From a virus: a DNA stretch of 64,000 nt. Numbering within the stretch: the stretch's first letter is position 1; every line of letters begins with the position of its first letter. Under the pieces are notes generated by a model that saw only the letters and a program-made list of their open reading frames with translations, made no database searches and was not told where the DNA came from. Positions 5,400-42,431 of the stretch are shown here, piece by piece. Made by a program: the position numbers and the translations under genes. Where the stretch lies: positions 44,932 to 108,931 of the IMG/VR virus record IMGVR_UViG_3300045988_174094; one strand, written 5' to 3'.

Positions 5400-5435
5400 G
5401 CGCCCAGCCCCGTAAAATGAAAGGAGCTATGTGAC

Positions 5436-5672
5436 ATGGAAATGAATTTTAGACTGATTGTGCGCTATTACATGACAAAAGAAGTGACAGACCAGTATTT
5501 TGCAACGTTAGGCGACGCGGATACAGTAGTCACTTATCTTGACAAAGCTATAGAGAACGGCGCGCGTCTCGGCTTTGTCGTACAAGAAAAGGTCGCATCA
5601 GACGACATCGTAACCATAGATGAAAATGGGACTGACATTGGCGAGTGGCGCAACCTAAGATGGATTGTGTAA
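5436..5672 (+). CDS. hypothetical early protein
   Basis: AAAGGAG RBS; 78 aa. Confidence 0.75.
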   Translation: MEMNFRLIVRYYMTKEVTDQYFATLGDADTVVTYLDKAIENGARLGFVVQEKVASDDIVTIDENGTDIGEWRNLRWIV

Positions 5673-5726
5673 CCTAAAATGACATGATGCTGAGCTATCG
5701 GCATGACGGGCAGAAAGGAATATAAA

Positions 5727-5981
5727 ATGAAAAAAACTATTACTTTAGCTGACTTCTGCGACTATGTCGCGTATGCTTATCCCGAATACGTTTATGACGA
5801 TGAAACAGGCGCGGAATGGGTATATGACAATTCTAATTATGAGAACGACGGCTGCGGCCTCTATATCAACTCTGCAACAGGTGAAGTTCTCTTTCCCGAT
5901 GAGATTGAAAAATGGTACGTCAAAGGACTTGAGTTGACAAGAGACCATGAAATCATCGTTTATGTAGGAAAAGACGCGTAA
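5727..5981 (+). CDS. hypothetical early protein (ends ..KDA*)
   Basis: ATG 5727 follows AAAGGAA. The stop codon sits in the terminator loop. Confidence 0.75.
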   Translation: MKKTITLADFCDYVAYAYPEYVYDDETGAEWVYDNSNYENDGCGLYINSATGEVLFPDEIEKWYVKGLELTRDHEIIVYVGKDA

Positions 5982-5994
5982 AGCGTCTTTTCTT
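5970..5994 (+). terminator. intrinsic terminator, stop codon in loop
   Basis: aagacgc-gtaa-gcgtctt followed by a T-run. Confidence 0.7.
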
Positions 5995-6006
5995 ATATCA
6001 ATTGAT

Positions 6007-6021
6007 GTCACTTTACATGAC
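6007..6021. repeat. GTCAy-N5-rTGAC box
   Basis: gtcactttacatgac. Confidence 0.6.
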
Positions 6022-6059
6022 ATCACCCGGTCACGTCTAAAAGCAATGTAGTATGACTT

Positions 6060-6078
6060 TTAGACGTGGCTCGTCTAA
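6060..6078. repeat. TTAGACG-N5-CGTCTAA inverted repeat
   Basis: ttagacgtggctcgtctaa, perfect 7-bp arms. Confidence 0.9.
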
Positions 6079-6093
6079 GTCATCTTATGTGAC
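6079..6093. repeat. GTCAy-N5-rTGAC box
   Basis: gtcatcttatgtgac. Confidence 0.6.
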
Positions 6094-6105
6094 TTTTATT
6101 CATTT

Positions 6106-6124
6106 TTAGACGGAGTTCGTCTAA
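6106..6124. repeat. TTAGACG-N5-CGTCTAA inverted repeat
   Basis: ttagacggagttcgtctaa. An extra half-site lies at 6128-6134. Confidence 0.9.
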
Positions 6125-6156
6125 CTATTAGACGCCATTCTGCCATGTTAGATGAC

Positions 6157-6184
6157 TTGACTTTTCGCTATTATGTGATATAAT
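6157..6184 (+). promoter_or_regulatory. early promoter TTGACT-16-TATAAT (TG-extended)
   Basis: ttgacttttcgctattatgtgatataat. Confidence 0.65.
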
Positions 6185-6261
6185 ATAGGCAAGAACGGCG
6201 GGGAATGAATATTGCCCGAAATTTATTAGAATGTCGTATAACATGGAAGGAGTAATATATC

Positions 6262-6435
6262 ATGATAGTTTTGGTAGAACATAACAACGGCTTCAGGGGC
6301 CAGCATGGTATCAGCGAAGATAACATTGCTACTTTGGATGAACTGCCTTCTCTCATCCAAAGCTACATACAAGCTGGAAGCTGCGTTTATAAGCTGACAA
6401 TTTTGCCAGATCTAGAAGGAAAGAGCTTGACTTAG
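6262..6435 (+). CDS. hypothetical early protein, 57 aa (below ORF-track cutoff)
   Basis: GGAAGGAG RBS about 10 nt upstream. Translates MIVLVEHNNGFRGQHG... The stop lies inside hairpin gagcttgac-tta-gtcagctc. Confidence 0.6.
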   Translation: MIVLVEHNNGFRGQHGISEDNIATLDELPSLIQSYIQAGSCVYKLTILPDLEGKSLT

Positions 6436-6449
6436 TCAGCTCTAACTTC

Positions 6450-6468
6450 TTAGACGTAATTCGTCTAA
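6450..6468. repeat. TTAGACG-N5-CGTCTAA inverted repeat
   Basis: ttagacgtaattcgtctaa. Confidence 0.9.
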
Positions 6469-6477
6469 AAAATTTTC

Positions 6478-6506
6478 TTGACTTTTTCAAAAAATTCTGA
6501 TATAAT
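6478..6506 (+). promoter_or_regulatory. early promoter TTGACT-17-TATAAT
   Basis: Lies nine bp after the inverted repeat. Confidence 0.7.
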
Positions 6507-6529
6507 GTAATCAAAGAAAGGAGAAAACA

Positions 6530-6667
6530 ATGTATACTTACTTTATCCAGAACTTGGAAACCTTTGAATGCTCAATGATTTTTGGGCTAACTTTTGTGGA
6601 TGCAATGCAACGCGCAAATCTTTGTATTGGAGAGTGGATTTGTTATGCACAAGTTTATGAAGACTAA
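6530..6667 (+). CDS. hypothetical early peptide, 45 aa
   Basis: AAAGGAG RBS; MYTYFIQNLETFEC.. Confidence 0.5.
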   Translation: MYTYFIQNLETFECSMIFGLTFVDAMQRANLCIGEWICYAQVYED

Positions 6668-6806
6668 AAAATTTTTTGGAAATTTCTTTGGTGTAATTGG
6701 AATCCTTGTAATTCTTTGGCTTATTTTTTCTTATTTCAATGTAATTTTCGCGCGGCCATTTCTCGCAAATTGGAATATTTTCAAAATTTTTGAAGGGTGT
6801 TTTTGA
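6645..6806 (+). CDS. small membrane protein, 53 aa
   Basis: ATG 6645 follows GGAGAG. One hydrophobic helix, FFGVIGILVILWLIFSYF. Internal start of track ORF 6594-6806. Confidence 0.55.
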   Translation: MHKFMKTKKFFGNFFGVIGILVILWLIFSYFNVIFARPFLANWNIFKIFEGCF

Positions 6807-6807
6807 A

Positions 6808-7038
6808 ATGAAAGTTGAAAATATTACAATCAAAAGACGACAGATTTCTTTTTCAGACAAAGAATTTATTGATATCAGTAATGCGCGGCGTTGGTTGAGA
6901 AAAGCGTTGCAATTTACACAGGACAAAGGATTACAAAGAGCCGTTGATGAATTAGAAAATGTTTTGAACAATATCGAAATTCAAGACAATGGCAAATACT
7001 ACGTTTTTAGCGAAGAAATTTGGAGAGATGACGCATAA
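6808..7038 (+). CDS. hypothetical early protein (ends ..DDA*)
   Basis: ATG 6808 comes directly after the upstream TGA. In frame with track ORF 6790-7038. Confidence 0.7.
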   Translation: MKVENITIKRRQISFSDKEFIDISNARRWLRKALQFTQDKGLQRAVDELENVLNNIEIQDNGKYYVFSEEIWRDDA

Positions 7039-7052
7039 TGCGTCATTTCTCT
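7028..7052 (+). terminator. hairpin terminator with stop in loop (weak T-run)
   Basis: atgacgca-taa-tgcgtcat. Confidence 0.55.
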
Positions 7053-7063
7053 TCCAAAAAATT

Positions 7064-7082
7064 TTAGACGTTTATCGTCTAA
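7064..7082. repeat. TTAGACG-N5-CGTCTAA inverted repeat
   Basis: ttagacgtttatcgtctaa. Confidence 0.9.
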
Positions 7083-7092
7083 ATAAAAATTC

Positions 7093-7121
7093 TTGACAAA
7101 AGAAAAATTCTATGATATAAT
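7093..7121 (+). promoter_or_regulatory. early promoter TTGACA-17-TATAAT (TG-extended)
   Basis: ttgacaaaagaaaaattctatgatataat. Confidence 0.75.
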
Positions 7122-7150
7122 ACAAATACCAAATGAAAGGGGAATAAAAA

Positions 7151-7549
7151 ATGACTACTATCACAAAATATGTTTGCGATCTCTGCGGGCAGGTTTTTGA
7201 CAATGAAATTGAATGCCAGGGACATGAAATTTTAGAAAAAATCGGCGGCCATCTCAACGACGTTATCCTTTTCGATGGGAACAAGCAAGTTCTTTCTTTT
7301 GATACTGTAATTGCTAGTTTTTATGATGAAGTTTGGGGAATTTATATTGAAGATGAGAGCGCAATTCCTTTTGTAGAGGAAATTTTCAGATTCTGTGAAA
7401 TTATCTCTCCATGGAGTAGCGACGGCGGCAGTAATCGAAAAACGACGGGACTTTATCTTTATGATGACGAACATTATCGTTGGTATCTTCCCGCCGATAA
7501 AATCGAAGAACTGAAAAAAGAAATGAAAGAATACGGAGTTGACGCGTAA
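7151..7549 (+). CDS. hypothetical early protein, N-terminal CxxC..CxxH (ends ..VDA*)
   Basis: AAAGGGGA RBS; 132 aa. Confidence 0.8.
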   Translation: MTTITKYVCDLCGQVFDNEIECQGHEILEKIGGHLNDVILFDGNKQVLSFDTVIASFYDEVWGIYIEDESAIPFVEEIFRFCEIISPWSSDGGSNRKTTGLYLYDDEHYRWYLPADKIEELKKEMKEYGVDA

Positions 7550-7567
7550 TGCGTCAACTCTTTTTTT
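7537..7567 (+). terminator. intrinsic terminator, stop in loop
   Basis: gagttgacgc-gtaat-gcgtcaactc followed by T7. Confidence 0.8.
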
Positions 7568-7575
7568 ATATCAAT

Positions 7576-7594
7576 TTAGACGTTTCCCGTCTAA
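7576..7594. repeat. TTAGACG-N5-CGTCTAA inverted repeat
   Basis: ttagacgtttcccgtctaa. Confidence 0.9.
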
Positions 7595-7603
7595 AAGTTT
7601 TTC

Positions 7604-7631
7604 TTGACTTTTTCAGAAAATATGGTATAAT
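7604..7631 (+). promoter_or_regulatory. early promoter TTGACT-16-TATAAT
   Basis: First of a tandem promoter pair. No ORF follows it. Confidence 0.65.
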
Positions 7632-7700
7632 ATAGATAGTTAGAGGAAAGAATTTTAGAAAATTTTACAAAAATAATTTCCAGAAATTTTGAAATTCATC

Positions 7701-7729
7701 TTGACAAGCCGCGTGAAACGTGCTATAAT
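7701..7729 (+). promoter_or_regulatory. early promoter TTGACA-17-TATAAT (TG-extended)
   Basis: ttgacaagccgcgtgaaacgtgctataat. Confidence 0.7.
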
Positions 7730-7735
7730 AATTGC

Positions 7736-7890
7736 GTAATCAAGAGAAGATGGTTGTGGGTGGGTTAGGAAAAATCTTCTTTATTGATACTGTTTCCTCC
7801 TGATGGTTGGAGAAAATAGTACTCCTTTCTTTTGTGTTTTTGTTTTGTTTACATTGAAATGCGCGGGCAACCATCACCGCGCGTTTCTTC
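7736..7890 (+). ncRNA. candidate small non-coding RNA (promoter-to-terminator unit without ORF)
   Basis: No ORF with an RBS lies between the -10 at 7724-7729 and hairpin gcgcgg..ccgcgc plus gtttcttc (7861-7890). The 5' end, GCGTAATCAAGAGA, matches the leader of gene 9249. Internal stem agaagat..atcttct. Confidence 0.4.
7861..7890 (+). terminator. terminator of the ORF-less unit
   Basis: gcgcgg-N10-ccgcgc followed by gtttcttc. Confidence 0.55.
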
Positions 7891-7900
7891 TAGTGGGAAA

Positions 7901-7919
7901 TTAGACGTGGTTCGTCTAA
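7901..7919. repeat. TTAGACG-N5-CGTCTAA inverted repeat
   Basis: ttagacgtggttcgtctaa. Confidence 0.9.
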
Positions 7920-7929
7920 TAAAAAGTTC

Positions 7930-7957
7930 TTGACTTTTCTGAAAAATATGATATAAT
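7930..7957 (+). promoter_or_regulatory. early promoter TTGACT-16-TATAAT
   Basis: ttgacttttctgaaaaatatgatataat. Confidence 0.7.
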
Positions 7958-7991
7958 ATAATTACCAAACAAAAGAAAAGGAGATTCTAAA

Positions 7992-8357
7992 ATGGATTAC
8001 AAAGCAATTGAAGAAATGTACGGCGGTATTCCTGAAAAGACCGAAATGGACAAACTCATTGACTACTTGAAGATTTGCCCACCGGAAAAGTATACTTATT
8101 CAGTCACCGAGTGCTATGGACGTCCTCAAGTCATTTTTATGGACTTTCAGACAGGCGAACGAGTAGCCGATTGCGTTTGCCATAGCGGAAGTTATGGACA
8201 CGAGCGCGGACTGATTGAAGCAATGGGTGCGCCACTTGTCAATGAAGAAGAAGTTGGGGATGATGTCGAAGGATGGCTGAGTGCGGTTGACATTATGTCA
8301 AGAATTTGTGAACTGCCTCCCGATAATATTTTGAAAATCGTAGGGGAGGACGCGTAA
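7992..8357 (+). CDS. hypothetical early protein (ends ..EDA*)
   Basis: AAAAGGAG RBS; 121 aa. Confidence 0.8.
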   Translation: MDYKAIEEMYGGIPEKTEMDKLIDYLKICPPEKYTYSVTECYGRPQVIFMDFQTGERVADCVCHSGSYGHERGLIEAMGAPLVNEEEVGDDVEGWLSAVDIMSRICELPPDNILKIVGEDA

Positions 8358-8371
8358 AGCGTCCTCTTTTT
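8347..8371 (+). terminator. intrinsic terminator, stop in loop
   Basis: gaggacgc-gtaaa-gcgtcctc followed by T5. Confidence 0.75.
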
Positions 8372-8372
8372 A

Positions 8373-8391
8373 TTAGACGTCCATCGTCTAA
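8373..8391. repeat. TTAGACG-N5-CGTCTAA inverted repeat
   Basis: ttagacgtccatcgtctaa. Confidence 0.9.
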
Positions 8392-8407
8392 ACATTTCTC
8401 ACGCGAA

Positions 8408-8422
8408 GTCATCTTATATGAC
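8408..8422. repeat. GTCAy-N5-rTGAC box
   Basis: gtcatcttatatgac. Confidence 0.6.
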
Positions 8423-8441
8423 AAAAATTTCTAAAAAGTTC

Positions 8442-8470
8442 TTGACAAAAAAAGAAAACTATGATATAAT
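8442..8470 (+). promoter_or_regulatory. early promoter TTGACA-17-TATAAT
   Basis: ttgacaaaaaaagaaaactatgatataat. Confidence 0.75.
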
Positions 8471-8499
8471 TTAGATACAAAAAGAAAGGAGTTTTTGAA

Positions 8500-8952
8500 A
8501 TGGAAAAAATTATTAGTTTAGATATGGACGGCACAATTGTAGATTTCTACGGCGTTGAAAATTGGCTTCCGAAAATTCGTGCACATGACGCAAGCCCGTA
8601 CAGAGACGCGCGCGCACTTGTAAATCTTTCAAGGCTTGCGCGACGTTTGAACGCAATCCAGCGCAAGGGATGGAAAATTCGTGTGGTTTCGTGGGGAAGT
8701 AAAGACCGCGACAAAAATTTTCTTGAAGAAGTTCGTCGCGCAAAAATTGAATGGTTAGCGCGTCATTTGAAAAGTGTTCATTTTGATGAAATTTGTATTG
8801 TTCATTATGGAACGCCAAAAAGCAAAGTTGGCACGTTACGCGGCGGTTTTCTTTTTGATGATGAAAAGCCAAATCGTGAAGAATGGACACGCGCGGGAAT
8901 GACGGCATATGACGCGACAGAAATTTTTGACTTCCTTCGTTCGATTAGGTGA
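8500..8952 (+). CDS. HAD-superfamily phosphatase, 5'(3')-deoxyribonucleotidase-like
   Basis: N-terminal DMDGT (HAD motif I) and later FLFDDE. 150 aa. AAAGGAG RBS. Confidence 0.7.
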   Translation: MEKIISLDMDGTIVDFYGVENWLPKIRAHDASPYRDARALVNLSRLARRLNAIQRKGWKIRVVSWGSKDRDKNFLEEVRRAKIEWLARHLKSVHFDEICIVHYGTPKSKVGTLRGGFLFDDEKPNREEWTRAGMTAYDATEIFDFLRSIR

Positions 8953-8981
8953 TGCGTAAAGCGTCACCTTTTTTGTTTTTT
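8948..8981 (+). terminator. intrinsic terminator overlapping the stop codon
   Basis: ggtgatgc-gtaaa-gcgtcacc followed by a long T-run. Confidence 0.8.
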
Positions 8982-8984
8982 GTC

Positions 8985-9003
8985 TTAGACGTAGACCGTC
9001 TAA
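8985..9003. repeat. TTAGACG-N5-CGTCTAA inverted repeat
   Basis: ttagacgtagaccgtctaa. Confidence 0.9.
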
Positions 9004-9019
9004 ATATTTCTCGCGCGAA

Positions 9020-9034
9020 GTCACGTTATGTGAC
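9020..9034. repeat. GTCAy-N5-rTGAC box
   Basis: gtcacgttatgtgac. Confidence 0.6.
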
Positions 9035-9054
9035 AAAATTTCTAAAAATTCTTC

Positions 9055-9083
9055 TTGACTTCTCGCGCAGATTATGGTATAAT
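9055..9083 (+). promoter_or_regulatory. early promoter TTGACT-17-TATAAT (first of tandem pair)
   Basis: A 12-bp stem follows (gtcaagaggga..tttcctcttgac, 9091-9145). Its 3' arm carries the -35 of the second promoter. Confidence 0.65.
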
Positions 9084-9140
9084 CCATAATGTCAAGAGGG
9101 AAAGAAACAAAAAAGAAATTGAAAAAAGTGAAATTTCCTC

Positions 9141-9169
9141 TTGACAAATTCAAAAAACTATGGTATAAT
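9141..9169 (+). promoter_or_regulatory. early promoter TTGACA-17-TATAAT (second of tandem pair)
   Basis: ttgacaaattcaaaaaactatggtataat. Confidence 0.7.
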
Positions 9170-9248
9170 AAAAGCGTAATCAAGAGAGGAAACCTCTTGA
9201 ATATAAAAAATAGGGTGGCGACCGTCGCTAAAATGAAAGGAATCTATT

Positions 9249-9641
9249 ATGACTACTCGTGAATTCTACAATGCTGTCCTGTCCATGGAAAACGTTTCCG
9301 CTGAAATCTCTGAAAAGGCTGCCGCGCTCCTGTCCGCAATGGACAAAAAGAACGCTGAACGTTCCTCTAAGCCGACAAAGGCGCAGAAAGAAAACGAAGC
9401 GCTCCTGCCCATCATGCGCGAAGTCCTCGCAGCTGCCGACCATCCCATCACCGCGTCTGACCTCTTTGACGCAAAGCCGGAGCTGAAGAACGTTCAGAAG
9501 TGTTCCTCTCTGCTCCGTATGCTTGAGAAGTCCGGTGAAGTGACTTCTGTTGAAGTCAAGGTGAAAGGCAAGGGGAAGGTAAAGGGCTATTCCCTCGCGG
9601 ACGCAGAGCCGAGCGACACCGCGCCGAGCGACGCCGAGTAA
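9249..9641 (+). CDS. winged-helix-like DNA-binding protein, paralog of 12546-12914
   Basis: MTTREFYNAVLSMENVSAEI.. aligns by eye with MTKREFLNTIATAENLPAEL.. Codon usage is conspicuously richer in GC than in neighbouring genes. Confidence 0.8.
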   Translation: MTTREFYNAVLSMENVSAEISEKAAALLSAMDKKNAERSSKPTKAQKENEALLPIMREVLAAADHPITASDLFDAKPELKNVQKCSSLLRMLEKSGEVTSVEVKVKGKGKVKGYSLADAEPSDTAPSDAE

Positions 9642-9649
9642 ACGTAACG

Positions 9650-9679
9650 GGACGTCACATAATGTGACGTCCTTTTTTT
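9650..9679 (+). terminator. intrinsic terminator built on a GTCAC..GTGAC box
   Basis: ggacgtcaca-taa-tgtgacgtcc followed by T7. Confidence 0.8.
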
Positions 9680-9688
9680 CTGGGGTAT

Positions 9689-9707
9689 TTAGACGTCCAT
9701 CGTCTAA
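9689..9707. repeat. TTAGACG-N5-CGTCTAA inverted repeat
   Basis: ttagacgtccatcgtctaa. Confidence 0.9.
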
Positions 9708-9724
9708 AACTTTTCCGCGCAGGC

Positions 9725-9739
9725 GTCACTTCACATGAC
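9725..9739. repeat. GTCAy-N5-rTGAC box
   Basis: gtcacttcacatgac. Confidence 0.6.
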
Positions 9740-9767
9740 AAAATCTAAAAAATTTTTCTCTGAATAC

Positions 9768-9796
9768 TTGACTTTTTGAAAAAATTATGGTATAAT
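9768..9796 (+). promoter_or_regulatory. early promoter TTGACT-17-TATAAT
   Basis: ttgactttttgaaaaaattatggtataat. Confidence 0.75.
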
Positions 9797-9831
9797 CTAG
9801 TTACCAAATGAAAGAAAGGAAATCAAAAACT

Positions 9832-10215
9832 ATGGCAAGTAAAATTGAAACTGAAATCCGCGAGGAATTTATGTCTGCCGTGCGCGAACTGTTTGAGGGC
9901 AAGGGTGAGGACGTGTTACAGGTCAAAAGCGGGACTATTTCTATTCCGTGGGTGCGTGGTGATGACGAGGGATATTTGAATATCGCTTTCAGTATTCCGA
10001 AGGGCGAACGGGACAAAGAAAATAAATGTTATATTCCTTATGACGGTTACGAGGAAGCGCAGAACTACGCACAGGAAACCGAAGCAAAGCGCGCAAAGAA
10101 AGCCGAAACCGCAAAGAAGAAAGCCGAAAAAATCGCGCGTGACGAGAAGAACCGCGCCGAGGCAAAGCGCAAGCGCGAAGAACGCGAAAAGGAAAAGGAG
10201 GAGAGTGACGCGTAA
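9832..10215 (+). CDS. hypothetical early protein with K/E/R-rich tail (ends ..SDA*)
   Basis: ATG 9832 follows AAAGAAAGGAAA. In frame with track ORF 9808-10215. Confidence 0.75.
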   Translation: MASKIETEIREEFMSAVRELFEGKGEDVLQVKSGTISIPWVRGDDEGYLNIAFSIPKGERDKENKCYIPYDGYEEAQNYAQETEAKRAKKAETAKKKAEKIARDEKNRAEAKRKREEREKEKEESDA

Positions 10216-10234
10216 AGCGTCACCCTCTTTTTTT
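10201..10234 (+). terminator. intrinsic terminator, stop in loop
   Basis: gagagtgacgc-gtaaa-gcgtcaccctc followed by T7. Confidence 0.8.
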
Positions 10235-10241
10235 CGGAATT

Positions 10242-10260
10242 TTAGACGTAGATCGTCTAA
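10242..10260. repeat. TTAGACG-N5-CGTCTAA inverted repeat
   Basis: ttagacgtagatcgtctaa. Confidence 0.9.
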
Positions 10261-10269
10261 AAATTTCTC

Positions 10270-10298
10270 TTGATAAAATCAAAATCTTATGCTATAAT
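10270..10298 (+). promoter_or_regulatory. early promoter TTGATA-17-TATAAT
   Basis: ttgataaaatcaaaatcttatgctataat. Confidence 0.7.
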
Positions 10299-10344
10299 CT
10301 AATTATCAAATGAAAGAAACACCTAAAAGAAAGGAATCTAAAAA

Positions 10345-10527
10345 ATGAGATATTTTATCAATGAACGAAACGGCGCGATGACGAACACCACCGATAATCA
10401 AGAAGTAGAAAGATTGCTTGCTAATGGATACAAAGAAATTAGTGAAGAAGTTTATACCATGGAATACCGCAAGGCGTATTTCTATGCTATCGGCGATTTT
10501 GACAAGGCTTTTTCTGAGGACACATAA
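10345..10527 (+). CDS. hypothetical early protein, 60 aa
   Basis: AAAGGAA RBS. The stop lies in hairpin gaggacacataacatgtcctc. Confidence 0.7.
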   Translation: MRYFINERNGAMTNTTDNQEVERLLANGYKEISEEVYTMEYRKAYFYAIGDFDKAFSEDT

Positions 10528-10544
10528 CATGTCCTCTTTTTTTC
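10516..10544 (+). terminator. intrinsic terminator, stop in loop
   Basis: gaggaca..tgtcctc followed by T8. Confidence 0.8.
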
Positions 10545-10550
10545 AAGATT

Positions 10551-10569
10551 TTAGACGAAATACGTCTAA
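10551..10569. repeat. TTAGACG-N5-CGTCTAA inverted repeat
   Basis: ttagacgaaatacgtctaa. Confidence 0.9.
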
Positions 10570-10578
10570 AAATTCTTC

Positions 10579-10606
10579 TTGACAAATTATAAAATTATGG
10601 TATAAT
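10579..10606 (+). promoter_or_regulatory. early promoter TTGACA-16-TATAAT
   Basis: ttgacaaattataaaattatggtataat. Confidence 0.7.
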
Positions 10607-10634
10607 ACAAATACTAAAAGAAAGGGGAATGAAA

Positions 10635-10967
10635 ATGAATAAAGAATTTTTGGAAAGTCTCGCTAATTGTTTAGAAAATTTTATTTCTAATGAAGTCGAA
10701 AAACGTTGTAAAAAATTAGAAGACGAAAAAAATGCCGCGGAATGGAATTCACAACGTTATAAAGGATGGCTGCTTTTTCTCATAAAAGATAACTCTATCA
10801 ATCTTGATAAATTATATGAAGAAGCAGAAAGAGAATCCCGTGAATGGGAAGAAAGTGATGCTCATAACGGAGTATTTGGACTGTCAAAAGGGAGACTTGA
10901 AGCAGACGATAGAACATACATGTATAAATGTATCAAAAAATTCAAAGAATCTTATGAGGACGCATAA
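10635..10967 (+). CDS. hypothetical early protein (ends ..EDA*); alternative ATG at 10629
   Basis: AAAGGGGAA RBS; 110 aa. Confidence 0.75.
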   Translation: MNKEFLESLANCLENFISNEVEKRCKKLEDEKNAAEWNSQRYKGWLLFLIKDNSINLDKLYEEAERESREWEESDAHNGVFGLSKGRLEADDRTYMYKCIKKFKESYEDA

Positions 10968-10985
10968 CGCGTCCTCTTCTCATTC
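10956..10985 (+). terminator. hairpin with stop in loop (weak T-run)
   Basis: gaggacgc-ataa-cgcgtcctc. Confidence 0.5.
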
Positions 10986-10993
10986 GTTCTACC

Positions 10994-11012
10994 TTAGACG
11001 AAAAACGTCTAA
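10994..11012. repeat. TTAGACG-N5-CGTCTAA inverted repeat
   Basis: ttagacgaaaaacgtctaa. Confidence 0.9.
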
Positions 11013-11026
11013 ATCCTCTGCCGAGC

Positions 11027-11041
11027 GTCGTCTTACGTGAC
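11027..11041. repeat. GTCAy-N5-rTGAC box (degenerate left arm)
   Basis: gtcgtcttacgtgac. Confidence 0.5.
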
Positions 11042-11052
11042 AAAAAAAGTTC

Positions 11053-11081
11053 TTGACAAAATCCCTTTTCTATGCTATAAT
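11053..11081 (+). promoter_or_regulatory. early promoter TTGACA-17-TATAAT
   Basis: ttgacaaaatcccttttctatgctataat. Confidence 0.75.
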
Positions 11082-11140
11082 ATGGATACGTTGAGAGAGG
11101 ATGAACGACCCCTCAATGAAATATGAAAGGACTTTGAAAA

Positions 11141-11887
11141 ATGAAAATTTGTGTATTCGACACTGAAACGACCAGCCTTGAAAAACCGTATTGTTATAAC
11201 GTCGGCTATCTGATTCTTGATACAGAATCCCGCGCTTGTCTTGTAAAGCGTGAATTTGTCATTGAACAAATTTGGCACAATCTCCCGCTTTTCAATACTG
11301 CGTACTACGCAAACAAGCGTTCTATTTATGTAGGCGCTTTGAGAGCGCGAACTATCCGCATGGAAAAGTTCGGTTATGTGACACAGCAGATGCTCCGTGA
11401 TTTCCGCAATTATGAAGTTGAACGCGCGTTTGCTTACAATTCCGCTTTTGATGAAAAAGTTTTCAATTTCAATTGCGATTGGTTCAAAGTAATAAATCCT
11501 TTTGAAACTGTTCCTATTTCTGATATCCGCGGTTTTGTCCATCATTTTATGATTGATGACACATTCCGCGCATGGTGCGAAGAAAATAATGCTTTTACTG
11601 AAAGCGGGCAGTATTCGACAACTGCCGAAGTATTGACACGTTACATCCGTTCTGACACGTCATTTGTCGAAGACCATACCGCACTTTCTGATAGCGAAAT
11701 CGAAGCAGAAATTTTGTTTACTTGCCTTGACCGTGGCGCAGATTTGAACGGAAACTATCAGGCAAAGCGTTCTATTGAACGTAAAATGACGCGCGAGTTC
11801 ACTATTGACTTGCCGGGTGAAAAAATTATCGTCGAAGGAACGCGCGCGACGTATTACAAGACAAAGAATAAATTCGTGGTGCGTTGA
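11141..11887 (+). CDS. DEDDh 3'-5' exonuclease (DnaQ-like fold)
   Basis: Motifs FDTETT (Exo I), AYNSAFDEKV (Exo II), HTALSDSEIE (Exo III, H-x4-D). Confidence 0.8.
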   Translation: MKICVFDTETTSLEKPYCYNVGYLILDTESRACLVKREFVIEQIWHNLPLFNTAYYANKRSIYVGALRARTIRMEKFGYVTQQMLRDFRNYEVERAFAYNSAFDEKVFNFNCDWFKVINPFETVPISDIRGFVHHFMIDDTFRAWCEENNAFTESGQYSTTAEVLTRYIRSDTSFVEDHTALSDSEIEAEILFTCLDRGADLNGNYQAKRSIERKMTREFTIDLPGEKIIVEGTRATYYKTKNKFVVR

Positions 11888-11900
11888 CACATAAAGAGGA

Positions 11901-11929
11901 AAAGGACACATCATGTGTCCTTTTCTTTT
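11901..11929 (+). terminator. intrinsic terminator
   Basis: aaaggacaca-tca-tgtgtccttt followed by tctttt. Confidence 0.75.
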
Positions 11930-11939
11930 ACGCATCTTT

Positions 11940-11958
11940 TTAGACGTATGACGTCTAA
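11940..11958. repeat. TTAGACG-N5-CGTCTAA inverted repeat (no promoter follows)
   Basis: ttagacgtatgacgtctaa. Confidence 0.9.
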
Positions 11959-12051
11959 TTCATTTTATTGTCAAATTTTCAACTTTCATAACATCAAATG
12001 CCGCGTTACATTACATTTTCCACATTACATTACCAATACTCACCGTCAAGT

Positions 12052-12066
12052 GTCACGTTACGTGAT
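12052..12066. repeat. GTCAy-N5-rTGAC box
   Basis: gtcacgttacgtgat. Confidence 0.55.
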
Positions 12067-12099
12067 TTTTTCTATATTATGTGACATCGCGCGGCCTCT

Positions 12100-12114
12100 A
12101 TCACATTATGTGAT
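12100..12114. repeat. GTCAy-N5-rTGAC box (variant)
   Basis: atcacattatgtgat. Confidence 0.5.
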
Positions 12115-12134
12115 TCTTGATACTGAATTTTGAA

Positions 12135-12200
12135 ATAAGCTGCGTCTGCGCGACTGCGCCCGCTCATAAGCTGCATTTGTGTCAAATTTCATATAAGCTG
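12135..12200 (+). repeat. three direct ATAAGCTG boxes (fourth at 12454-12461)
   Basis: Copies at 12135, 12166 and 12193, spaced 31 and 27 bp. A GC-rich gcgtctgcgcgactgcgcc segment lies between the first two. Confidence 0.6.
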
Positions 12201-12315
12201 GATTTTCAATATTTCGGGCGCGTCAAATCTGTAGAGGTATCAATGGAAATTTCCTCTTAAAAAATAAAACGCATTTTTTGCGACTGTTGAGTTGGAAAAT
12301 TTGACAAAGAAAGAT

Positions 12316-12330
12316 GTCATTTTACATGAC
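12316..12330. repeat. GTCAy-N5-rTGAC box
   Basis: gtcattttacatgac. Confidence 0.6.
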
Positions 12331-12345
12331 AGCGCGCACCAAAAT

Positions 12346-12360
12346 GTCACGTAACGTGAC
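12346..12360. repeat. GTCAy-N5-rTGAC box
   Basis: gtcacgtaacgtgac. Confidence 0.6.
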
Positions 12361-12370
12361 CGGCGCAATT

Positions 12371-12399
12371 TTGAAAAATCAACGAAAATATAGTATAAT
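12371..12399 (+). promoter_or_regulatory. promoter TTGAAA-17-TATAAT
   Basis: ttgaaaaatcaacgaaaatatagtataat. Followed by a ~140-nt leader before gene 12546. Confidence 0.65.
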
Positions 12400-12545
12400 A
12401 TATATAGAAACTGAGGGAAGAAGAAACGAAACCTCCACATAGTGGAACCGCGCATAAGCTGCGACTTACGTTCGATTATCTTCTTCCATTTCTAAAATCG
12501 GGGATATAAACCCATCTATTAGAAAATTGAAAGAAGGATACTAGT

Positions 12546-12914
12546 ATGACTAAGAGAGAATTTCTGAACACTATCGCTACCGCTGAAAACCTGCCCGCTG
12601 AACTGGTTGAATTCGCCGCACACGAGCTGGAAGTAATGAACGCTGCAAACGAGAAGAACCGCGCCAAGGCAGCTGAGAAGCGCGCCACAAAGGACGCAGA
12701 GAAGGAGCCTATTCGTAACGCCATTATGGACGTTATGACGAATGAGCCGCAGACCGCCACTATGCTCATCGAGGCAGCTGGCCTCACCGAAACCGTGAAG
12801 CCTCAGTCTATCCCTTCTCTTCTGAAACCCCTCATCGAGGCAGGAACGCTTGAGAAGGTCGATATGAAGATTCCGGAGAAGAAGGGAACTCAGAAGGGCT
12901 ATAAGCTTTCCTAA
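12546..12914 (+). CDS. winged-helix-like DNA-binding protein, paralog of 9249-9641
   Basis: N-terminus and length match the paralog. GC-rich codons. RBS AAGAAGGA. Confidence 0.8.
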   Translation: MTKREFLNTIATAENLPAELVEFAAHELEVMNAANEKNRAKAAEKRATKDAEKEPIRNAIMDVMTNEPQTATMLIEAAGLTETVKPQSIPSLLKPLIEAGTLEKVDMKIPEKKGTQKGYKLS

Positions 12915-12926
12915 GCTCTCTACCCC

Positions 12927-12965
12927 TAAGCCCTGGCTTATTAGCTGGGGCTTATTCCTTATTCT
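12927..12965 (+). terminator. intrinsic terminator
   Basis: taagccc..gggctta followed by a T-rich tail. Confidence 0.6.
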
Positions 12966-12970
12966 TTGAT

Positions 12971-12985
12971 GTCATGTAACGTGAT
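12971..12985. repeat. GTCAy-N5-rTGAC box
   Basis: gtcatgtaacgtgat. Confidence 0.55.
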
Positions 12986-13022
12986 GTCAAATTTGCTGAC
13001 GCGATATCGTATAAATAATAAT

Positions 13023-13075
13023 TTGAATTTTTGAAATGAATTGAATTTTGAAATGAATTGAATTTTGAAACGAAA
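13023..13075 (+). repeat. tandem repeat, ~17-18 bp unit TTGAATTTT(T)GAAAyGAA x3
   Basis: ttgaatttttgaaatgaa / ttgaattttgaaatgaa / ttgaattttgaaacgaa. Confidence 0.85.
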
Positions 13076-13199
13076 CCTATCTCAACACATCTCAATCCGC
13101 CAATGGCCACAACCATTGATCGCCATCGTCCGGACACGTACTCTACCCCTCCCACGTGGGGAACTGTGCCATCCCTTCTATATATAAGCCATTGCTTCT

Positions 13200-13995
13200 A
13201 AGCCTTTGCGTCTAAGCTTCTCTTTTTTTCCTTTCTTTTGTCTTTTTGTTCCCCCTCTTTTTCTCTTTCTTTTCTACTCCCTTCTATTCTCCCCTTTTTT
13301 CTTCATTTTTCTCCCCTTTTTTCTTCATTTTTCTCCCCTTTTTTTTGGAATTTTTTCTGTTCTCCCCTTTTTTTTGGAATTTTTTCTGTTCTCCCCTTTT
13401 TTTTGGAATTTTTTTTCGTTTACACTTTTTCTACGTTTTTTTCTCTTCCTTCCCTCTATTCTCCCTTTTTCTTTTCTCCAATTTTACTTTTCCCCTCTTA
13501 TTAGTTCTATTGATTACACCCTTTTCTTTTTTCTTCTCTATTTCCTTCGTTTTTTCTTTTTCCCCTCTTTTTATCCTCTTCTTTTGTTTTTTTCTTTTAC
13601 GTCCTTCTATTTATACTCTTCTTTTATTTTTCTTTTTTCTTTCTCTCCTATCTTTTCTTCTTCTATTTCCCCCCTTTTATTACTCCCTCTTATATATATT
13701 CTTTCTCTAATTCTATTATTTACACCTTTCTATATAATTCTTCTTCTAATTTTTTTCTTTTCTCCCCCTTTTATTTTCCCCCTATTATTTTTTCTTCCTC
13801 TATATTTTCTACTTTTCCCTTTTTCTTTTTTCTTTCCTATTTTTTCTTTTTATTTTTATTTTTCTTTTTCTACTTCTTTTTTATTTCTATTCTCTCCTTT
13901 CTTCTATGCTCCCCTTACTTCTAAACCACTTTCTTCTACGAATTATTTCGTAAGCCCTATTTCTTACAAAAATATTCTTATCCGTTTTCTCTAAC
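13200..13995 (+). other. ~0.8 kb polypyrimidine (T/C) tract, non-coding
   Basis: Many 60-nt lines hold only 0-3 purines, and G is nearly absent. All three + frames are stop-free but translate to F/L/S/P strings without RBS. Confidence 0.9.
13289..13420 (+). repeat. tandem repeats inside the CT tract (22-bp unit x2, then 29-bp unit x~2.5)
   Basis: CTCCCC plus T6-8 boxes start at 13289, 13311, 13333, 13362 and 13391. They are separated by cttcattttt or ggaattttttctgtt. Confidence 0.9.
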
Positions 13996-14111
13996 AGATT
14001 TTTTTTATTTCCAGTTATAAGAGGTTTTTCTTTTATTCCTCTCAAAAATTTTGAGTCCTCAAATTTTCTTCCCTCTTTCTAACAGAAGAAAACTTACTAA
14101 AGGAGGCGCGT

Positions 14112-14483
14112 ATGCTTCGTTACCACAAAACATATACCGAAAACCTAGTAGCAAAAGCCCTAGATGAATGGGGCTTTCATTATGTAATGTTCTACACCTT
14201 CAAGGAGTTGCGCTCGGCTCACGGGGCGCCGACTGGTTATTCCTTTGGAATTCTAGACACGAGCTATGTCCCCTATCAGCTACTTCTACTAATTGATATC
14301 CATTACGAGAATGCAAAAGAACATACAAAGAAAAACTATGTGTTGAAAGAGGAATTCGCGCGCGACCATCAGCTAGGATTGGTTATAATAGAAAACGAGG
14401 TCGCGCGCTCTATGAGCTACGCCCAGTTTCGAGATTGGCTAGCAATGGCGATTGAGCAAAAAGAATTTTGCGAAGTAGAGTAA
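14112..14483 (+). CDS. hypothetical protein, possible PD-(D/E)XK-like nuclease fold
   Basis: AAAGGAGG RBS; 123 aa. LLLIDIHYE..K resembles a D..E.K core, but the match is weak. Confidence 0.7.
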   Translation: MLRYHKTYTENLVAKALDEWGFHYVMFYTFKELRSAHGAPTGYSFGILDTSYVPYQLLLLIDIHYENAKEHTKKNYVLKEEFARDHQLGLVIIENEVARSMSYAQFRDWLAMAIEQKEFCEVE

Positions 14484-14488
14484 AAGAA

Positions 14489-14518
14489 GCCAGAGAGCAC
14501 AAACTCTCTGGCCTTTTC
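14489..14518. terminator. bidirectional terminator at the convergence of + and - blocks
   Basis: gccagagag-cacaaa-ctctctggc with T-runs on both strands. Confidence 0.8.
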
Positions 14519-14636
14519 TATTGATATTACGCGAAGCGTTCTGACCCTTTAAGGTCAGACTAGTTGAATTATTATTTTTTCTTCTATTTCACTAATTATT
14601 GTTTCCTAATATTTTATATTATATTACTCAACCCTT

Positions 14637-14790
14637 TTTGACCCGCTTTTGTGTCAAAATGACCCAGCAGCGGGTCGTTTCGCCCCGATTTTATTAGATA
14701 ATTTGGGGCTTTTTGACACGCCTCCGTGTCGTTTTACCCCGCCTTGTGTCAAATTGACACAAAATTGGGTCGTTTTATCCCGCGGGCGGT
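14637..14790. repeat. array of direct and inverted repeats (GTCGTTTyryCCC x3, TTTGACmCGC x2, palindrome TTGTGTCAA-A-TTGACACAA)
   Basis: GTCGTTT copies at 14675, 14728 and 14769. The perfect palindrome is at about 14745-14763. Lies immediately 3' of gene 14775-15098. Confidence 0.75.
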
Positions 14791-42199: not shown

Positions 42200-42431
42200 T
42201 ATTGTTCCACTCCCACCTTGTTTTATCGTCAACATCAATTACAAAATATTCTTTGTCAATCTGGTCAATTCGGAGTTGATGAATTCCATAGGTATTAAGT
42301 TCAGGTAAAAAGTATGCTAAATCTTCAATATTAAGACAAACATCGCCTTCTATTAGTTGACCATAAATATCATCATTTACTCTTTTTCTTTCTTCATAAT
42401 AATCTTTATATTCATTACTCATATTACCCAA
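42180..42431 (-). CDS. hypothetical protein
   Basis: 83-aa ORF. Confidence 0.65.
   Translation of the reverse strand: MGNMSNEYKDYYEERKRVNDDIYGQLIEGDVCLNIEDLAYFLPELNTYGIHQLRIDQIDKEYFVIDVDDKTRWEWNNNEEIYL

What the first reader, a model, noticed from the sequence alone, without database searches (positions are those of the whole stretch)
13200..13995. ~0.8 kb almost purine-free (T/C-only) tract with nested tandem repeats at the end of the early block
For about 800 bp roughly nine of ten + strand bases are T or C, judged by eye. Several 60-nt lines contain 0-3 purines, and G is almost absent.

Because stop codons need purines, all three + frames are open (track ORFs 13206-13994, 13238-13504, 13246-13710). 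They translate to F/L/S/P strings and have no RBS, so I read the tract as non-coding.

Inside it, CTCCCC plus T6-8 boxes recur at 13289, 13311, 13333, 13362 and 13391. This gives a 22-bp unit twice, then a 29-bp unit about 2.5 times. The tract lies after terminator 12927-12965 and before ORF 14112. I could find no convincing promoter on either side.

No standard feature class explains such strand asymmetry. Hypotheses, all inference:
(a) A rightward transcript would be a C-containing, G-free, unstructured RNA. That is an ideal Rho-loading (rut-like) platform or Rho decoy. It could also be a sponge of CUCC/CCUC anti-SD-like sites.
(b) A leftward transcript would be purine-only and packed with GGAG/GAGG SD-like sites, acting as a 30S sponge.
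(c) A DNA-level role: triplex or i-motif structure, a replication, packaging or injection-pause signal, or a terminal-repeat boundary.
Basis: partly seen in the sequence, partly recalled or inferred. Interest (0 to 1): 0.85.

Follow-up and report, generated by a model that had tools for sequence, protein, structure and literature searches.

The report
Purine-poor repeat tract in gut phage
A 0.3-0.9 kb non-coding stretch made almost only of T and C on one strand is conserved in composition, but not in sequence, at one spot in a family of uncultured human-gut phages. It most likely makes a structure-free pyrimidine RNA leader, though its function is unproven.

Summary
Window 13200-13995 is 85.6% pyrimidine on the + strand, with 3.3% G. 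It is the only such stretch in the 64 kb. It holds perfect 22-bp (x2.6) and 29-bp (x2.9) tandem arrays.

It is not an assembly artefact, because more than 20 independent assemblies carry it between the same two small genes. The internal arrays are unresolved, though: one scaffold has an N gap inside the 29-mer array, and at least ten contigs end inside the tract.

Relatives keep the composition (10-19% purine over 311-882 bp) while the sequence becomes unalignable. Substitutions are almost all C<->T: 88 versus 15 columns, against 26 versus 35 at fourfold sites (p = 2e-8). So pyrimidine content itself appears constrained.

The tract is non-coding. Either strand would be unfolded as a single strand. 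It is the longest C-rich, G-poor stretch and the least stable duplex in the window.

A sister clade has a shorter, milder version preceded by a conserved sigma-70-type promoter reading into it.

Best guess (confidence about 0.35): an untranslated, unstructured pyrimidine RNA leader of the downstream gene that acts as a Rho or RNA-binding-protein platform.

Not supported: anti-SD or SD sponge, G4/i-motif, H-DNA, terminal-repeat boundary.

The parts
12546..12914 (+). Gene A: the 122-aa last gene of the early block and left anchor of the locus. It is probably a helix-turn-helix DNA-binding protein.
   Evidence: ORF. No Pfam hit. Its sister-clade counterpart hits the PHROG 'HTH DNA binding protein' at E = 4e-4. 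456 variants are known, many on tiny contigs.
12927..12954 (+). Intrinsic terminator hairpin after gene A. The stem has 12 pairs and the T-tract is interrupted (TTCCTTATTC).
   Evidence: Conserved in all close relatives.
12961..12990 (-). Leftward sigma-70-like site TTGACA-18-AAGAAT. Its spacer holds the early-block operator-like palindrome (12971-12985). It reads away from the tract.
   Evidence: Present in 12 of the 17 intergenic sequences scanned (two of them are the window and its near-identical scaffold copy).
13023..13074 (+). 17-bp tandem repeat TTGAATTTTGAAATGAA x3. Copy number and sequence vary between strains. In five relatives the repeats form TTGAAA-type sigma-70-like sites (16-17 nt spacer, TG before the second hexamer).
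13075..13190 (+). Short variable 9-10-bp repeats (ATCTCAACA type), followed by a roughly 100-bp block that is nearly invariant in close relatives (CCAATGGCCACAACCATTG...CCCACGTGGGGAACTGTGCCATCCCTTCTATATATAAGCC).
   Evidence: Alignments. The block is unique in the window.
13185..13217 (+). 14-bp repeat TAAGCCATTGCTTC x2.4 (2-4 copies in relatives), at the left edge of the tract.
13217..13925 (+). Core pyrimidine tract: about 86-90% T+C, non-coding, 72% A+T, with C in runs of 4-6.
13287..13344 (+). 22-bp tandem repeat x2.6 (TTCTCCCCTTTTTTCTTCATTT).
13331..13414 (+). 29-bp tandem repeat x2.9 (TTCTCCCCTTTTTTTTGGAATTTTTTCTG). The true copy number is unresolved. It carries the motif 'T-run, GGAA, T-run' found in nearly all main-clade tracts.
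13926..14111 (+). Conserved right-flank block. It includes TTACAAAAATATTCTTAT...TAACAGATTTTTTTTATTTCCAGTTATAAGAGG, the palindrome CTCAAAAATTTTGAG and the Shine-Dalgarno sequence AAAGGAGG. Parts of it are kept even in the most diverged relatives.
14112..14483 (+). Gene B: 123 aa, confined to this phage clade, and right anchor of the locus. The fold is alpha-beta-beta-beta-alpha-beta and the function is unassigned.
   Evidence: Weak PHROG 'homing endonuclease' hit at E = 0.0025.
14487..14514 (.). Bidirectional terminator hairpin that closes the + strand unit against the converging - strand gene block.

Best explanation
The tract is a fast-evolving non-coding spacer that grows by tandem-repeat slippage. 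It appears constrained to stay pyrimidine-only on the sense strand of the early region.

The most likely reason is that it is transcribed rightward as a long untranslated leader, or non-coding RNA, in front of gene B (14112-14483). Such an RNA has almost no G and little A. It therefore cannot fold, has no Shine-Dalgarno sequence and is not covered by ribosomes. It is C-rich and G-poor over hundreds of nucleotides.

From established knowledge of Rho-dependent termination, that is the substrate on which Rho, or another protein that binds single-stranded pyrimidine RNA, loads. The tract would then act as an RNA-level attenuator, insulator or protein-loading platform between the early block and gene B.

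Shown here: the composition, its conservation, the C<->T-only substitution pattern, the non-coding status, the lack of structure, and a conserved promoter reading into the homologous region in the sister clade.

Inferred: that the main-clade tract is transcribed in this direction, that Rho or another RNA-binding protein is the partner, and what the consequence is for gene B.
For: 1. The strand-specific composition is conserved while the sequence turns over.
- All main-clade relatives carry a tract of 311-882 bp at 10-19% purine at the same site and on the same strand.
- Relatives whose gene B is only 76-79% identical to the window's have tracts that cannot be aligned with it.

2. Substitutions point to a constraint on pyrimidine content.
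- In the well-aligned part of the tract, 88 majority-pyrimidine columns vary only C<->T and 15 admit a purine.
- At fourfold-degenerate sites of five flanking genes the counts are 26 and 35 (Fisher p = 1.8e-8).
- In the adjacent non-coding flank they are 26 and 17 (p = 0.002).

3. G is depleted more strongly than A: 3.3% against 11% in the tract, compared with 18.7% and 30% in the window. This fits avoidance of RNA pairing, start codons and SD sequences, and Rho's G-poor preference.

4. Predicted RNA folding energy per nucleotide is 0 to -0.03 kcal/mol, against -0.22 +/- 0.05 elsewhere in the window.

5. The tract is the longest C-rich, G-poor stretch of the window by a wide margin.

6. Sister clade. 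The syntenic intergenic region has a milder pyrimidine-rich stretch (minimum 150-bp purine fraction 17-21%). All 9 members scanned keep a TTGACA-17-TA(G/A)AAT site with TG before the second hexamer, reading rightward into it. The scan of one member (L088) finds only one weak terminator-like hairpin, and no strong terminator, before the gene B-like ORF.

7. The layout fits a rightward unit: tract, then gene B, then a terminator at 14489-14512. No conserved leftward promoter lies to the right of the tract. By my reading of the sequence, the gene A hairpin has no T-run on the - strand, so it would not stop a leftward transcript.
Against: - In the window itself no sigma-70-type promoter precedes the tract. 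The site homologous to the sister-clade promoter looks decayed (TTGCTG, 11 nt, TATAAA). Transcription would then depend on read-through of the terminator at 12927-12954 or on an unrecognised promoter type.
- The well-conserved block at 13926-14111 could hold gene B's own promoter, which would make a leader role unnecessary.
- A rut site needs only about 80 nt. That does not explain 300-900 nt, the near-exclusion of A, the clustering of C into runs (CCCC 17 against 3.4 expected), or the conserved motif 'T-run, GGAA/CTAGAA, T-run'.
- The host is unknown, so whether Rho is present and used cannot be said.
- No transcript data were available.
- The C<->T excess could partly reflect a mutational bias or alignment of low-complexity sequence.
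Confidence: 0.35

Rival explanations
1. A DNA-level replication element: an extended duplex-unwinding or R-loop zone next to iteron-like repeats. Either the pyrimidine strand is bound as single-stranded DNA, or a leftward purine-rich RNA forms an unusually stable RNA:DNA hybrid on the pyrimidine template and primes or blocks replication.
For: - The tract is the least stable duplex of the whole 64 kb at the 300-bp and 700-bp scales and is 72% A+T.
- Directly upstream lie tandem repeats (17 bp x3, 9-10 bp units, 14 bp x2.4), a nearly invariant block and a small HTH-protein gene.
- 'Any pyrimidine will do' is also what a purine-RNA:pyrimidine-DNA hybrid, or binding of one single strand, would require.
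- C runs, which are G runs in a leftward RNA, are clustered: 17 against 3.4 expected.
Against: - There is no DnaA-box cluster.
- No conserved leftward promoter lies to the right of the tract.
- G content of a leftward RNA would be 26%, and by my reading only one pair of C runs is spaced by 10 nt or less. This is below the usual criteria for R-loop-forming sequences.
- The site sits next to a convergent transcription junction and about 36 kb from the replication genes. That is not where origins usually lie.
- Gene A is too small to be a typical initiator.
Confidence: 0.2
2. A largely non-adaptive by-product. A pyrimidine-rich seed, like the sister-clade spacers, expanded by replication slippage into a variable low-complexity spacer. 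Its composition is kept by the repeat turnover itself and by a transition-biased mutation process, with no function beyond spacing.
For: - Length varies from 311 to more than 880 bp.
- Arrays are strain-specific: a 9-bp unit CTACTTCTC in at least 14 copies, a 22-mer, and a 29-mer in at least 4-6 copies.
- Indels are numerous.
- The sister clade manages with about 200 bp at 24% purine, and more distant relatives have no tract at all.
Against: - The well-aligned, repeat-poor half of the tract varies about as often as neighbouring neutral sites, yet almost only by C<->T (88:15 against 26:35). That is hard to obtain without selection against purines.
- C is kept at 26% in conserved runs rather than decaying to T.
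- Lineages with unalignable tracts converge on the same 10-19% purine and the same punctuation motifs.
Confidence: 0.15
3. A DNA-entry, packaging or genome-end signal. By analogy with the non-coding repeat region that ends the first-step-transfer DNA of phage T5, the tract would pause DNA injection after the early block or mark the inner edge of a long terminal repeat.
For: - The tract closes a + strand block whose scanned part (8.4-12.4 kb) holds small genes driven by eight consensus or near-consensus sigma-70 promoters, each gene followed by a terminator. This is a typical host-takeover layout.
- It lies in a non-coding region of 1.2 kb, or 1.75 kb in the relative L071, full of direct repeats.
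- Many contig ends fall in or near the tract.
Against: - The contig ends are explained by the tandem arrays.
- One genome-length contig closes on itself through an exact 55-bp overlap elsewhere, and the conserved block next to the tract occurs once per contig.
- There are no DnaA-box pairs.
- The T5 region is highly conserved in sequence, whereas this tract is not.
Confidence: 0.07

Closest known systems
Rho utilisation (rut) regions, or 'C>G bubbles', in untranslated bacterial and phage leaders (for example lambda tR1)
   Same: C-rich, G-poor, unstructured, untranslated RNA on the sense strand upstream of a gene. The tract is the strongest such region in the window.
   Different: - It is 4-10 times longer than a functional rut site.
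- A is also largely excluded.
- It contains tandem arrays and conserved punctuation motifs.
- Transcription and any dependence on Rho are not shown, and the host is unknown.
Injection stop signal region of phage T5
   Same: A non-coding region of more than 1 kb, packed with repeats, directly after a block of early genes driven by host-type promoters.
   Different: - The T5 region lies in a long terminal repeat, is strongly conserved in sequence and has 8 paired DnaA boxes.
- Here there are no DnaA boxes and no assembled terminal repeat.
- Here the sequence is variable and the strand bias extreme, which is not described for T5.
Iteron plus A+T-rich unwinding-element origins (phage lambda ori, plasmid origins) and R-loop origins (ColE1, T4 oriF/oriG)
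   Same: Tandem short repeats next to the least stable duplex of the region. Purine/pyrimidine strand asymmetry is known, from my own recollection, for the A+T-rich part of lambda ori.
   Different: - Unwinding elements are tens of base pairs long, not 300-900.
- There is no recognisable initiator, no DnaA boxes and no suitably placed promoter for an R-loop.
- The position is at a convergent junction.
Long polypurine.polypyrimidine tracts that form H-DNA (for example in eukaryotic introns)
   Same: Extended strand segregation of purines and pyrimidines.
   Different: - Pure pyrimidine runs are short: 27 nt at most in the window and 58 nt at most in relatives.
- Mirror symmetry is not above chance.

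Membership tests
Rho-dependent terminator / rut site | At least about 80 nt of C-rich, G-poor RNA | tested here: met
   13209-13971 has at least 15 C per 78 nt and (C+1)/(G+1) of at least 5, apart from a short dip at 13376-13405. Other such stretches in the window are 78-119 nt.
Rho-dependent terminator / rut site | RNA unstructured and not translated | tested here: met
   Folding energy per nucleotide is 0 to -0.03 kcal/mol against -0.22 +/- 0.05 in the background. Indels between relatives shift the frame. No RBS and no Pfam hit.
Rho-dependent terminator / rut site | The region is transcribed in the C-rich orientation | tested here: inconclusive
   A rightward promoter is conserved in all 9 sister-clade members scanned. 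None is recognisable in the window.
Rho-dependent terminator / rut site | Termination depends on Rho of the host | not testable with these tools
   The host is unknown. The only genome hit is a metagenome-assembled genome contig at 52% identity.
H-DNA (intramolecular triplex) | Homopurine.homopyrimidine mirror repeat | tested here: not met
   The longest exact mirror arm is 14 nt, against 10.3 +/- 1.6 (maximum 15) in shuffles.
G-quadruplex / i-motif | Four runs of at least 3 C (or G) with loops of 12 nt or less | tested here: not met
   No match in the tract.
T5-type injection stop region | Paired DnaA boxes and location inside a long terminal repeat | tested here: not met
   No DnaA-box cluster near the tract. 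The adjacent conserved block is single-copy per contig, and one contig closes as a circle.
T5-type injection stop region | Non-coding repeat-rich region of more than 1 kb ending the block of first-expressed genes | tested here: met
Iteron / unwinding-element replication origin | Tandem binding-site repeats beside the least stable duplex | tested here: met
   Repeats at 13023-13074 and 13185-13217. The least stable 300-bp and 700-bp windows of the 64 kb start at 13607 and 13396, inside the tract.
Iteron / unwinding-element replication origin | Origin activity and a cognate initiator | not testable with these tools
   Gene A is only a 122-aa HTH-like protein.
Type III toxin-antitoxin antitoxin RNA (ToxI-like repeats) | Tandem repeats that fold into pseudoknots, next to a ToxN-like toxin gene | tested here: not met
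   The 29-nt units lie in a 300-nt stretch predicted to be almost structure-free. The neighbouring proteins have no such annotation.
Any Rfam RNA family | Match to a covariance model | tested here: not met
   The only hit is a chance-level miRNA match outside the tract.

The most novel reading that the evidence does not exclude
The tract encodes a new kind of phage product: an abundant, purine-free 'naked' RNA. It is made early from a repeat array whose length the phage can tune by slippage, and it titrates a host single-stranded-RNA machine (Rho, cold-shock proteins or a ribonuclease). Alternatively, the same tract acts as a new strand-specific DNA element that is read as single-stranded pyrimidine DNA.
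Probability: 0.15. Interest if true: 0.85.

Novelty: new variant of a known kind. Interest (0 to 1): 0.62.

Why it matters
If the constraint on 'pyrimidines only' is real, this is a rare case in which selection acts on strand composition rather than on sequence in a phage genome. It would point to a function carried out by a single strand, either RNA or DNA.

Such a function would give a handle on how a widespread but uncultured family of 100-120 kb human-gut phages separates its early host-takeover programme from what follows.

There is also a practical point. The tract and its arrays are a systematic breakpoint for short-read assemblies of these phages. Genome-length contigs of this family are therefore often cut or collapsed here.

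Tried and rejected
- DNA similarity to GenBank phages, in both near and distant modes, found nothing. Gene A as a protein also found nothing.
- Pfam on the flanking proteins and on the tract ORF found nothing.
- Rfam found nothing.
- Gene B: a PDB sequence-profile search found nothing. The AlphaFold model has mean pLDDT 71, and Foldseek against the PDB gave no hit below E = 0.018. I therefore dropped my guess that it is a PD-(D/E)xK nuclease. Only a weak PHROG 'homing endonuclease' hit remains.
- I considered an ECF-sigma-like promoter (GGGGAAC, 16 nt, TATAAG) in the conserved left block. The motif is unique in the window and not enriched.
- The right-block motifs TCTAACAGA and CAGA...TATAAG are not enriched elsewhere, so they give no evidence for a repeated phage promoter.
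- A search for a coding reading was rejected.
- The anti-SD or SD sponge idea was rejected.
- A-tract phasing and curvature show only weak periodicities of 10.5-14 nt.
- A scan with the motif 'T-run, GGAA, T-run' listed about 80 loci, essentially all unrelated; the only listed hit from a relative was L041.
- Literature searches for polypyrimidine tracts in phage genomes found nothing relevant.
- The genome-collection scan for a host gave only one distant metagenome-assembled genome contig.
Full report
**1. What is there**

Window 13200-13995 contains T 473, C 208, A 89 and G 26, which is 14.4% purine. The window as a whole averages 48.6% purine per 100 nt (sd 8.8). The interval 13161-13971 is the only one where a 100-nt window drops below 25%. 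Between 13700 and 13899 there is no G at all.

Tandem Repeats Finder reports a perfect 22-bp unit x2.6 at 13287-13344 and a perfect 29-bp unit x2.9 at 13331-13414. Many degenerate 6-18-bp periodicities run through the rest of the tract.

The C residues are clustered. CCCC occurs 17 times against 3.4 expected, and TCCCC 12 times against 1.9. The few purines sit in recurring contexts: TTCTA 14 times against 3.9 expected, and GGAA flanked by T-runs.

**2. Context**

The window comes from an uncultured phage of about 100-120 kb found in human-gut metagenomes.
- It has no DNA match in GenBank phages.
- It encodes topoisomerase II, a DnaB-like helicase (30% identical to SPbeta-group helicases), a primase, a ligase, a sigma-like protein and a CHAP/PG_binding_1 lysin. 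This suggests a Firmicutes host.

The tract lies in a 1197-bp non-coding interval. On its left is gene A (12546-12914, 122 aa, HTH-like) with its terminator at 12927-12954. On its right is gene B (14112-14483, 123 aa), which is followed by a bidirectional terminator at 14487-14514. Beyond that lies a long block of converging - strand genes.

Upstream, the + strand block (scanned over 8.4-12.4 kb) carries eight consensus or near-consensus sigma-70 promoters, each with a small gene and a terminator. It also carries an operator-like palindrome, GTCACGTTACGTGAC, found 23 times against 0.5 expected and confined to 5073-12985, apart from one 3-mismatch hit at 17204. This is a typical early host-takeover module.

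**3. Not an artefact, but hard to assemble**

The two flanking proteins retrieve the same locus from ENA, JGI, Logan and IMG/VR assemblies of many samples. Every main-clade contig that spans the interval has a pyrimidine tract there.

One genome-length IMG/VR contig closes on itself through an exact 55-bp overlap about 1.2 kb to the left of the tract, which is a k-mer-sized circularisation. The conserved block next to the tract occurs once per contig. The tract is therefore internal and single-copy in assembled genomes.

The arrays inside it are not resolved, however.
- ENA scaffold_183, otherwise identical to the window, has 100 N inside the 29-mer array, with 2 copies on one side and 4 on the other.
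- At least ten contigs from different samples start or stop inside the tract.
- Other strains carry a different array at the left edge, the 9-bp unit CTACTTCTC in at least 14 copies, and contigs break in it.
- Gene A is often found on contigs of only 0.6-2 kb.

The 2.9 copies in the window should be read as a minimum.

**4. Comparative evidence**

Among close relatives (gene A 89-98% and gene B 94-98% identical) the flanks are almost invariant while the tract is riddled with indels and segment replacements. The intergenic interval is 997-1381 bp in these relatives and 701 bp in the diverged relative L016.

More diverged members have tracts that cannot be aligned with the window's, yet they keep the composition. 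In the table, identity is that of gene B to the window's gene B.

| Relative | Gene B identity | Tract length | Purine |
|---|---|---|---|
| L068 | 85% | 582 bp | 18.6% |
| L063 | 79% | 311 bp | 12.2% |
| L071 | 76% | 766 bp | 10.3% |
| L016 | 76% | 426 bp | 16.7% |

G is always the rarest base.

The motif 'T-run, GGAA or CTAGAA, T-run' recurs 1-6 times in nearly all of these tracts. In the window it occurs only inside the tract.

A sister clade, whose neighbouring 248-aa exonuclease-like protein is 66-68% identical, keeps the same gene order. In the member examined, L088, the interval is about 790 bp, and only about 200 bp of it is pyrimidine-rich (24% purine; 17-21% in the best 150 bp across members). 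It is built from TATAAGTACGCC boxes with pyrimidine-rich spacers.

More distant homologues of gene A or of the 248-aa protein have no such tract nearby.

**5. Is the composition selected?**

I classified alignment columns whose majority base is a pyrimidine.

| Region | Vary only C<->T | Include a purine | Fisher p against tract |
|---|---|---|---|
| Tract, well-aligned part (13440-13800) | 88 | 15 | - |
| Fourfold-degenerate sites, five flanking genes | 26 | 35 | 1.8e-8 |
| Non-coding flank to the left | 26 | 17 | 0.002 |

The fraction of variable columns is similar in the tract (34%) and at fourfold sites (40%). The tract therefore changes about as fast as neutral sites, but almost only between C and T.

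Pairwise indels are mostly not multiples of three (8-15 per pair), which rules out a coding reading.

Caveats: alignment of low-complexity sequence favours pyrimidine-pyrimidine matches, the sequences are phylogenetically related, and a transition-biased mutation process cannot be excluded.

**6. Physical properties**

As single strands, both the + and the - version are essentially unfolded. Predicted energy per nucleotide is 0 to -0.03 kcal/mol for 300-nt pieces, against -0.22 +/- 0.05 for the rest of the window.

No G-quadruplex or i-motif pattern with loops of 12 nt or less exists in the tract. Mirror symmetry, which H-DNA requires, is not above shuffles (14 against 10.3 +/- 1.6).

By nearest-neighbour energies the tract is the least stable duplex of the 64 kb at the 300-bp and 700-bp scales. 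It is also by far the longest stretch that meets a simple rut-like criterion of at least 15 C per 78 nt and (C+1)/(G+1) of at least 5.

**7. Direction of transcription**

In the window there is no sigma-70-type site on the + strand in front of the tract.

The sister clade is different. All nine members scanned have a TTGACA-17-TA(G/A)AAT site with TG before the second hexamer, placed right after gene A's terminator and about 350 bp upstream of the pyrimidine-rich minimum. The scan of L088 finds only one weak terminator-like hairpin between this site and the gene B-like ORF.

In the main clade the homologous site looks decayed (TTGCTG, 11 nt, TATAAA). Five members gain TTGAAA-type sigma-70-like sites (16-17 nt spacer, TG before the second hexamer) from the 17-bp repeats. 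A leftward TTGACA-18-AAGAAT site with an operator in its spacer, present in 12 of the 17 intergenic sequences scanned, reads away from the tract.

No conserved leftward promoter lies to the right of the tract. By my reading of the sequence, the gene A hairpin has no T-run on the - strand, so it would not stop a leftward transcript. The layout therefore fits a rightward unit of tract, gene B and terminator better than a leftward one. For the main clade this is inference.

**8. Interpretation**

A constraint that accepts any pyrimidine but rejects purines, on one strand only, with free length, points to a function exerted by a single strand.

I consider the most likely reading to be an untranslated, unstructured pyrimidine RNA leader or non-coding RNA in front of gene B. 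By established knowledge of Rho, such an RNA is an ideal loading substrate. It could equally load another protein that binds single-stranded pyrimidine RNA. My confidence is about 0.35.

That G is depleted about twice as strongly as A relative to genome frequencies fits an RNA-level constraint. G pairs with both C and U, and it is needed for every start codon and for the Shine-Dalgarno sequence.

This reading does not explain the great length, the C runs or the conserved punctuation motifs.

The rivals are:
- a DNA-level unwinding, R-loop or replication element next to iteron-like repeats (0.2);
- a mostly neutral slippage-born spacer (0.15);
- a T5-like injection stop or terminal-repeat boundary (0.07).

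The remaining probability goes to something not considered here.

CCTCC/GGAGG is absent (0 against 2 expected) and CCTC is not enriched.

**9. Comparison with known systems**

The tract works most like an oversized rut region. Membership of that class cannot be claimed, because neither transcription nor Rho dependence is shown.

It shares with the T5 injection-stop region only the position and the richness in repeats. The T5 region has paired DnaA boxes, lies in a terminal repeat and is strongly conserved (10.1101/866236). None of these holds here.

I found no description of a comparable purine-depleted tract in a phage genome in the literature searched, and no Rfam family matches.

**10. Verdict**

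This is a real, conserved, non-coding feature whose composition appears constrained, in an uncharacterised gut-phage family. Its function is open. I rate it as a new variant of a known kind (an extreme rut-like leader), with a meaningful chance that it is something new. Interest: 0.62.

Noticed in passing
window 5073-12985: The 15-bp palindrome GTCACGTTACGTGAC and close variants occur 23 times against 0.5 expected. All but one 3-mismatch hit (17204) lie in the early + strand block, often just upstream of or inside sigma-70-type promoters. It looks like the operator of an early-gene repressor.
   Followed up: partly
window 8442-12399: Eight consensus or near-consensus sigma-70 promoters (TTGACA, 17 nt, TATAAT, mostly with TG before the second hexamer), each followed by a small ORF and a terminator. 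This is a host-takeover-like early module. Second palindromes of the form TTAGACG, 5 nt, CGTCTAA sit just upstream of several promoters and also occur in the sister clade (L088 4800-4818 and 5124-5142).
   Followed up: partly
window 13023-13097, and the same place in L007-L015, L065 and L068: A hypervariable zone of short tandem repeats lies left of the conserved block. It holds a 17-bp unit in about 2-4 copies and strain-specific 9-10-bp units (ATCTCAACA, CAATGGAAC, ATCAATAAAA).
   Followed up: partly
window 14515-14775: The 260-bp gap at the convergent junction after gene B is packed with repeated TTTTTGAC(C/A)C and GTGTCAAA motifs and small hairpins. Its function is unknown.
   Followed up: no
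window 10104-10218 (inside ORF 9808-10215): This is the only stretch of the window with more than 75% purine per 100 nt. Relatives show comparable purine-rich windows upstream of their 248-aa gene (for example L077 3340-3489), though I did not check that these are homologous. It is probably a low-complexity coding segment.
   Followed up: no
window 42424-44408: A UvrD-like helicase ORF of only 351 aa abuts an ORF that ends in a GIY-YIG nuclease domain. The helicase gene may be interrupted or accompanied by a homing endonuclease.
   Followed up: no
L074, L075 and L076, last 120-150 bases: In some strains the left edge of the tract carries the 9-bp unit CTACTTCTC in at least 14 tandem copies. 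Contigs end inside this array.
   Followed up: yes
L066 and L067, about 6.4-7.1 kb; L001 4784-5068: The - strand block beside the locus encodes Thg1-like, cREC_REC and metallophosphoesterase domains in some relatives. This hints at an RNA repair or modification module.
   Followed up: no
window 12008-12035, and the start of L009: Two genome-length contigs from different phages (scaffold_183 and IMG/VR 178625) are cut at nearly the same place, near window 12012-12022 by my alignment. The cut falls in a zone of roughly 19-bp repeats (GCCGCGTTACATTACATTT type). For 178625 the cut is a 55-bp circular overlap. Why both cuts fall here is unexplained.
   Followed up: partly
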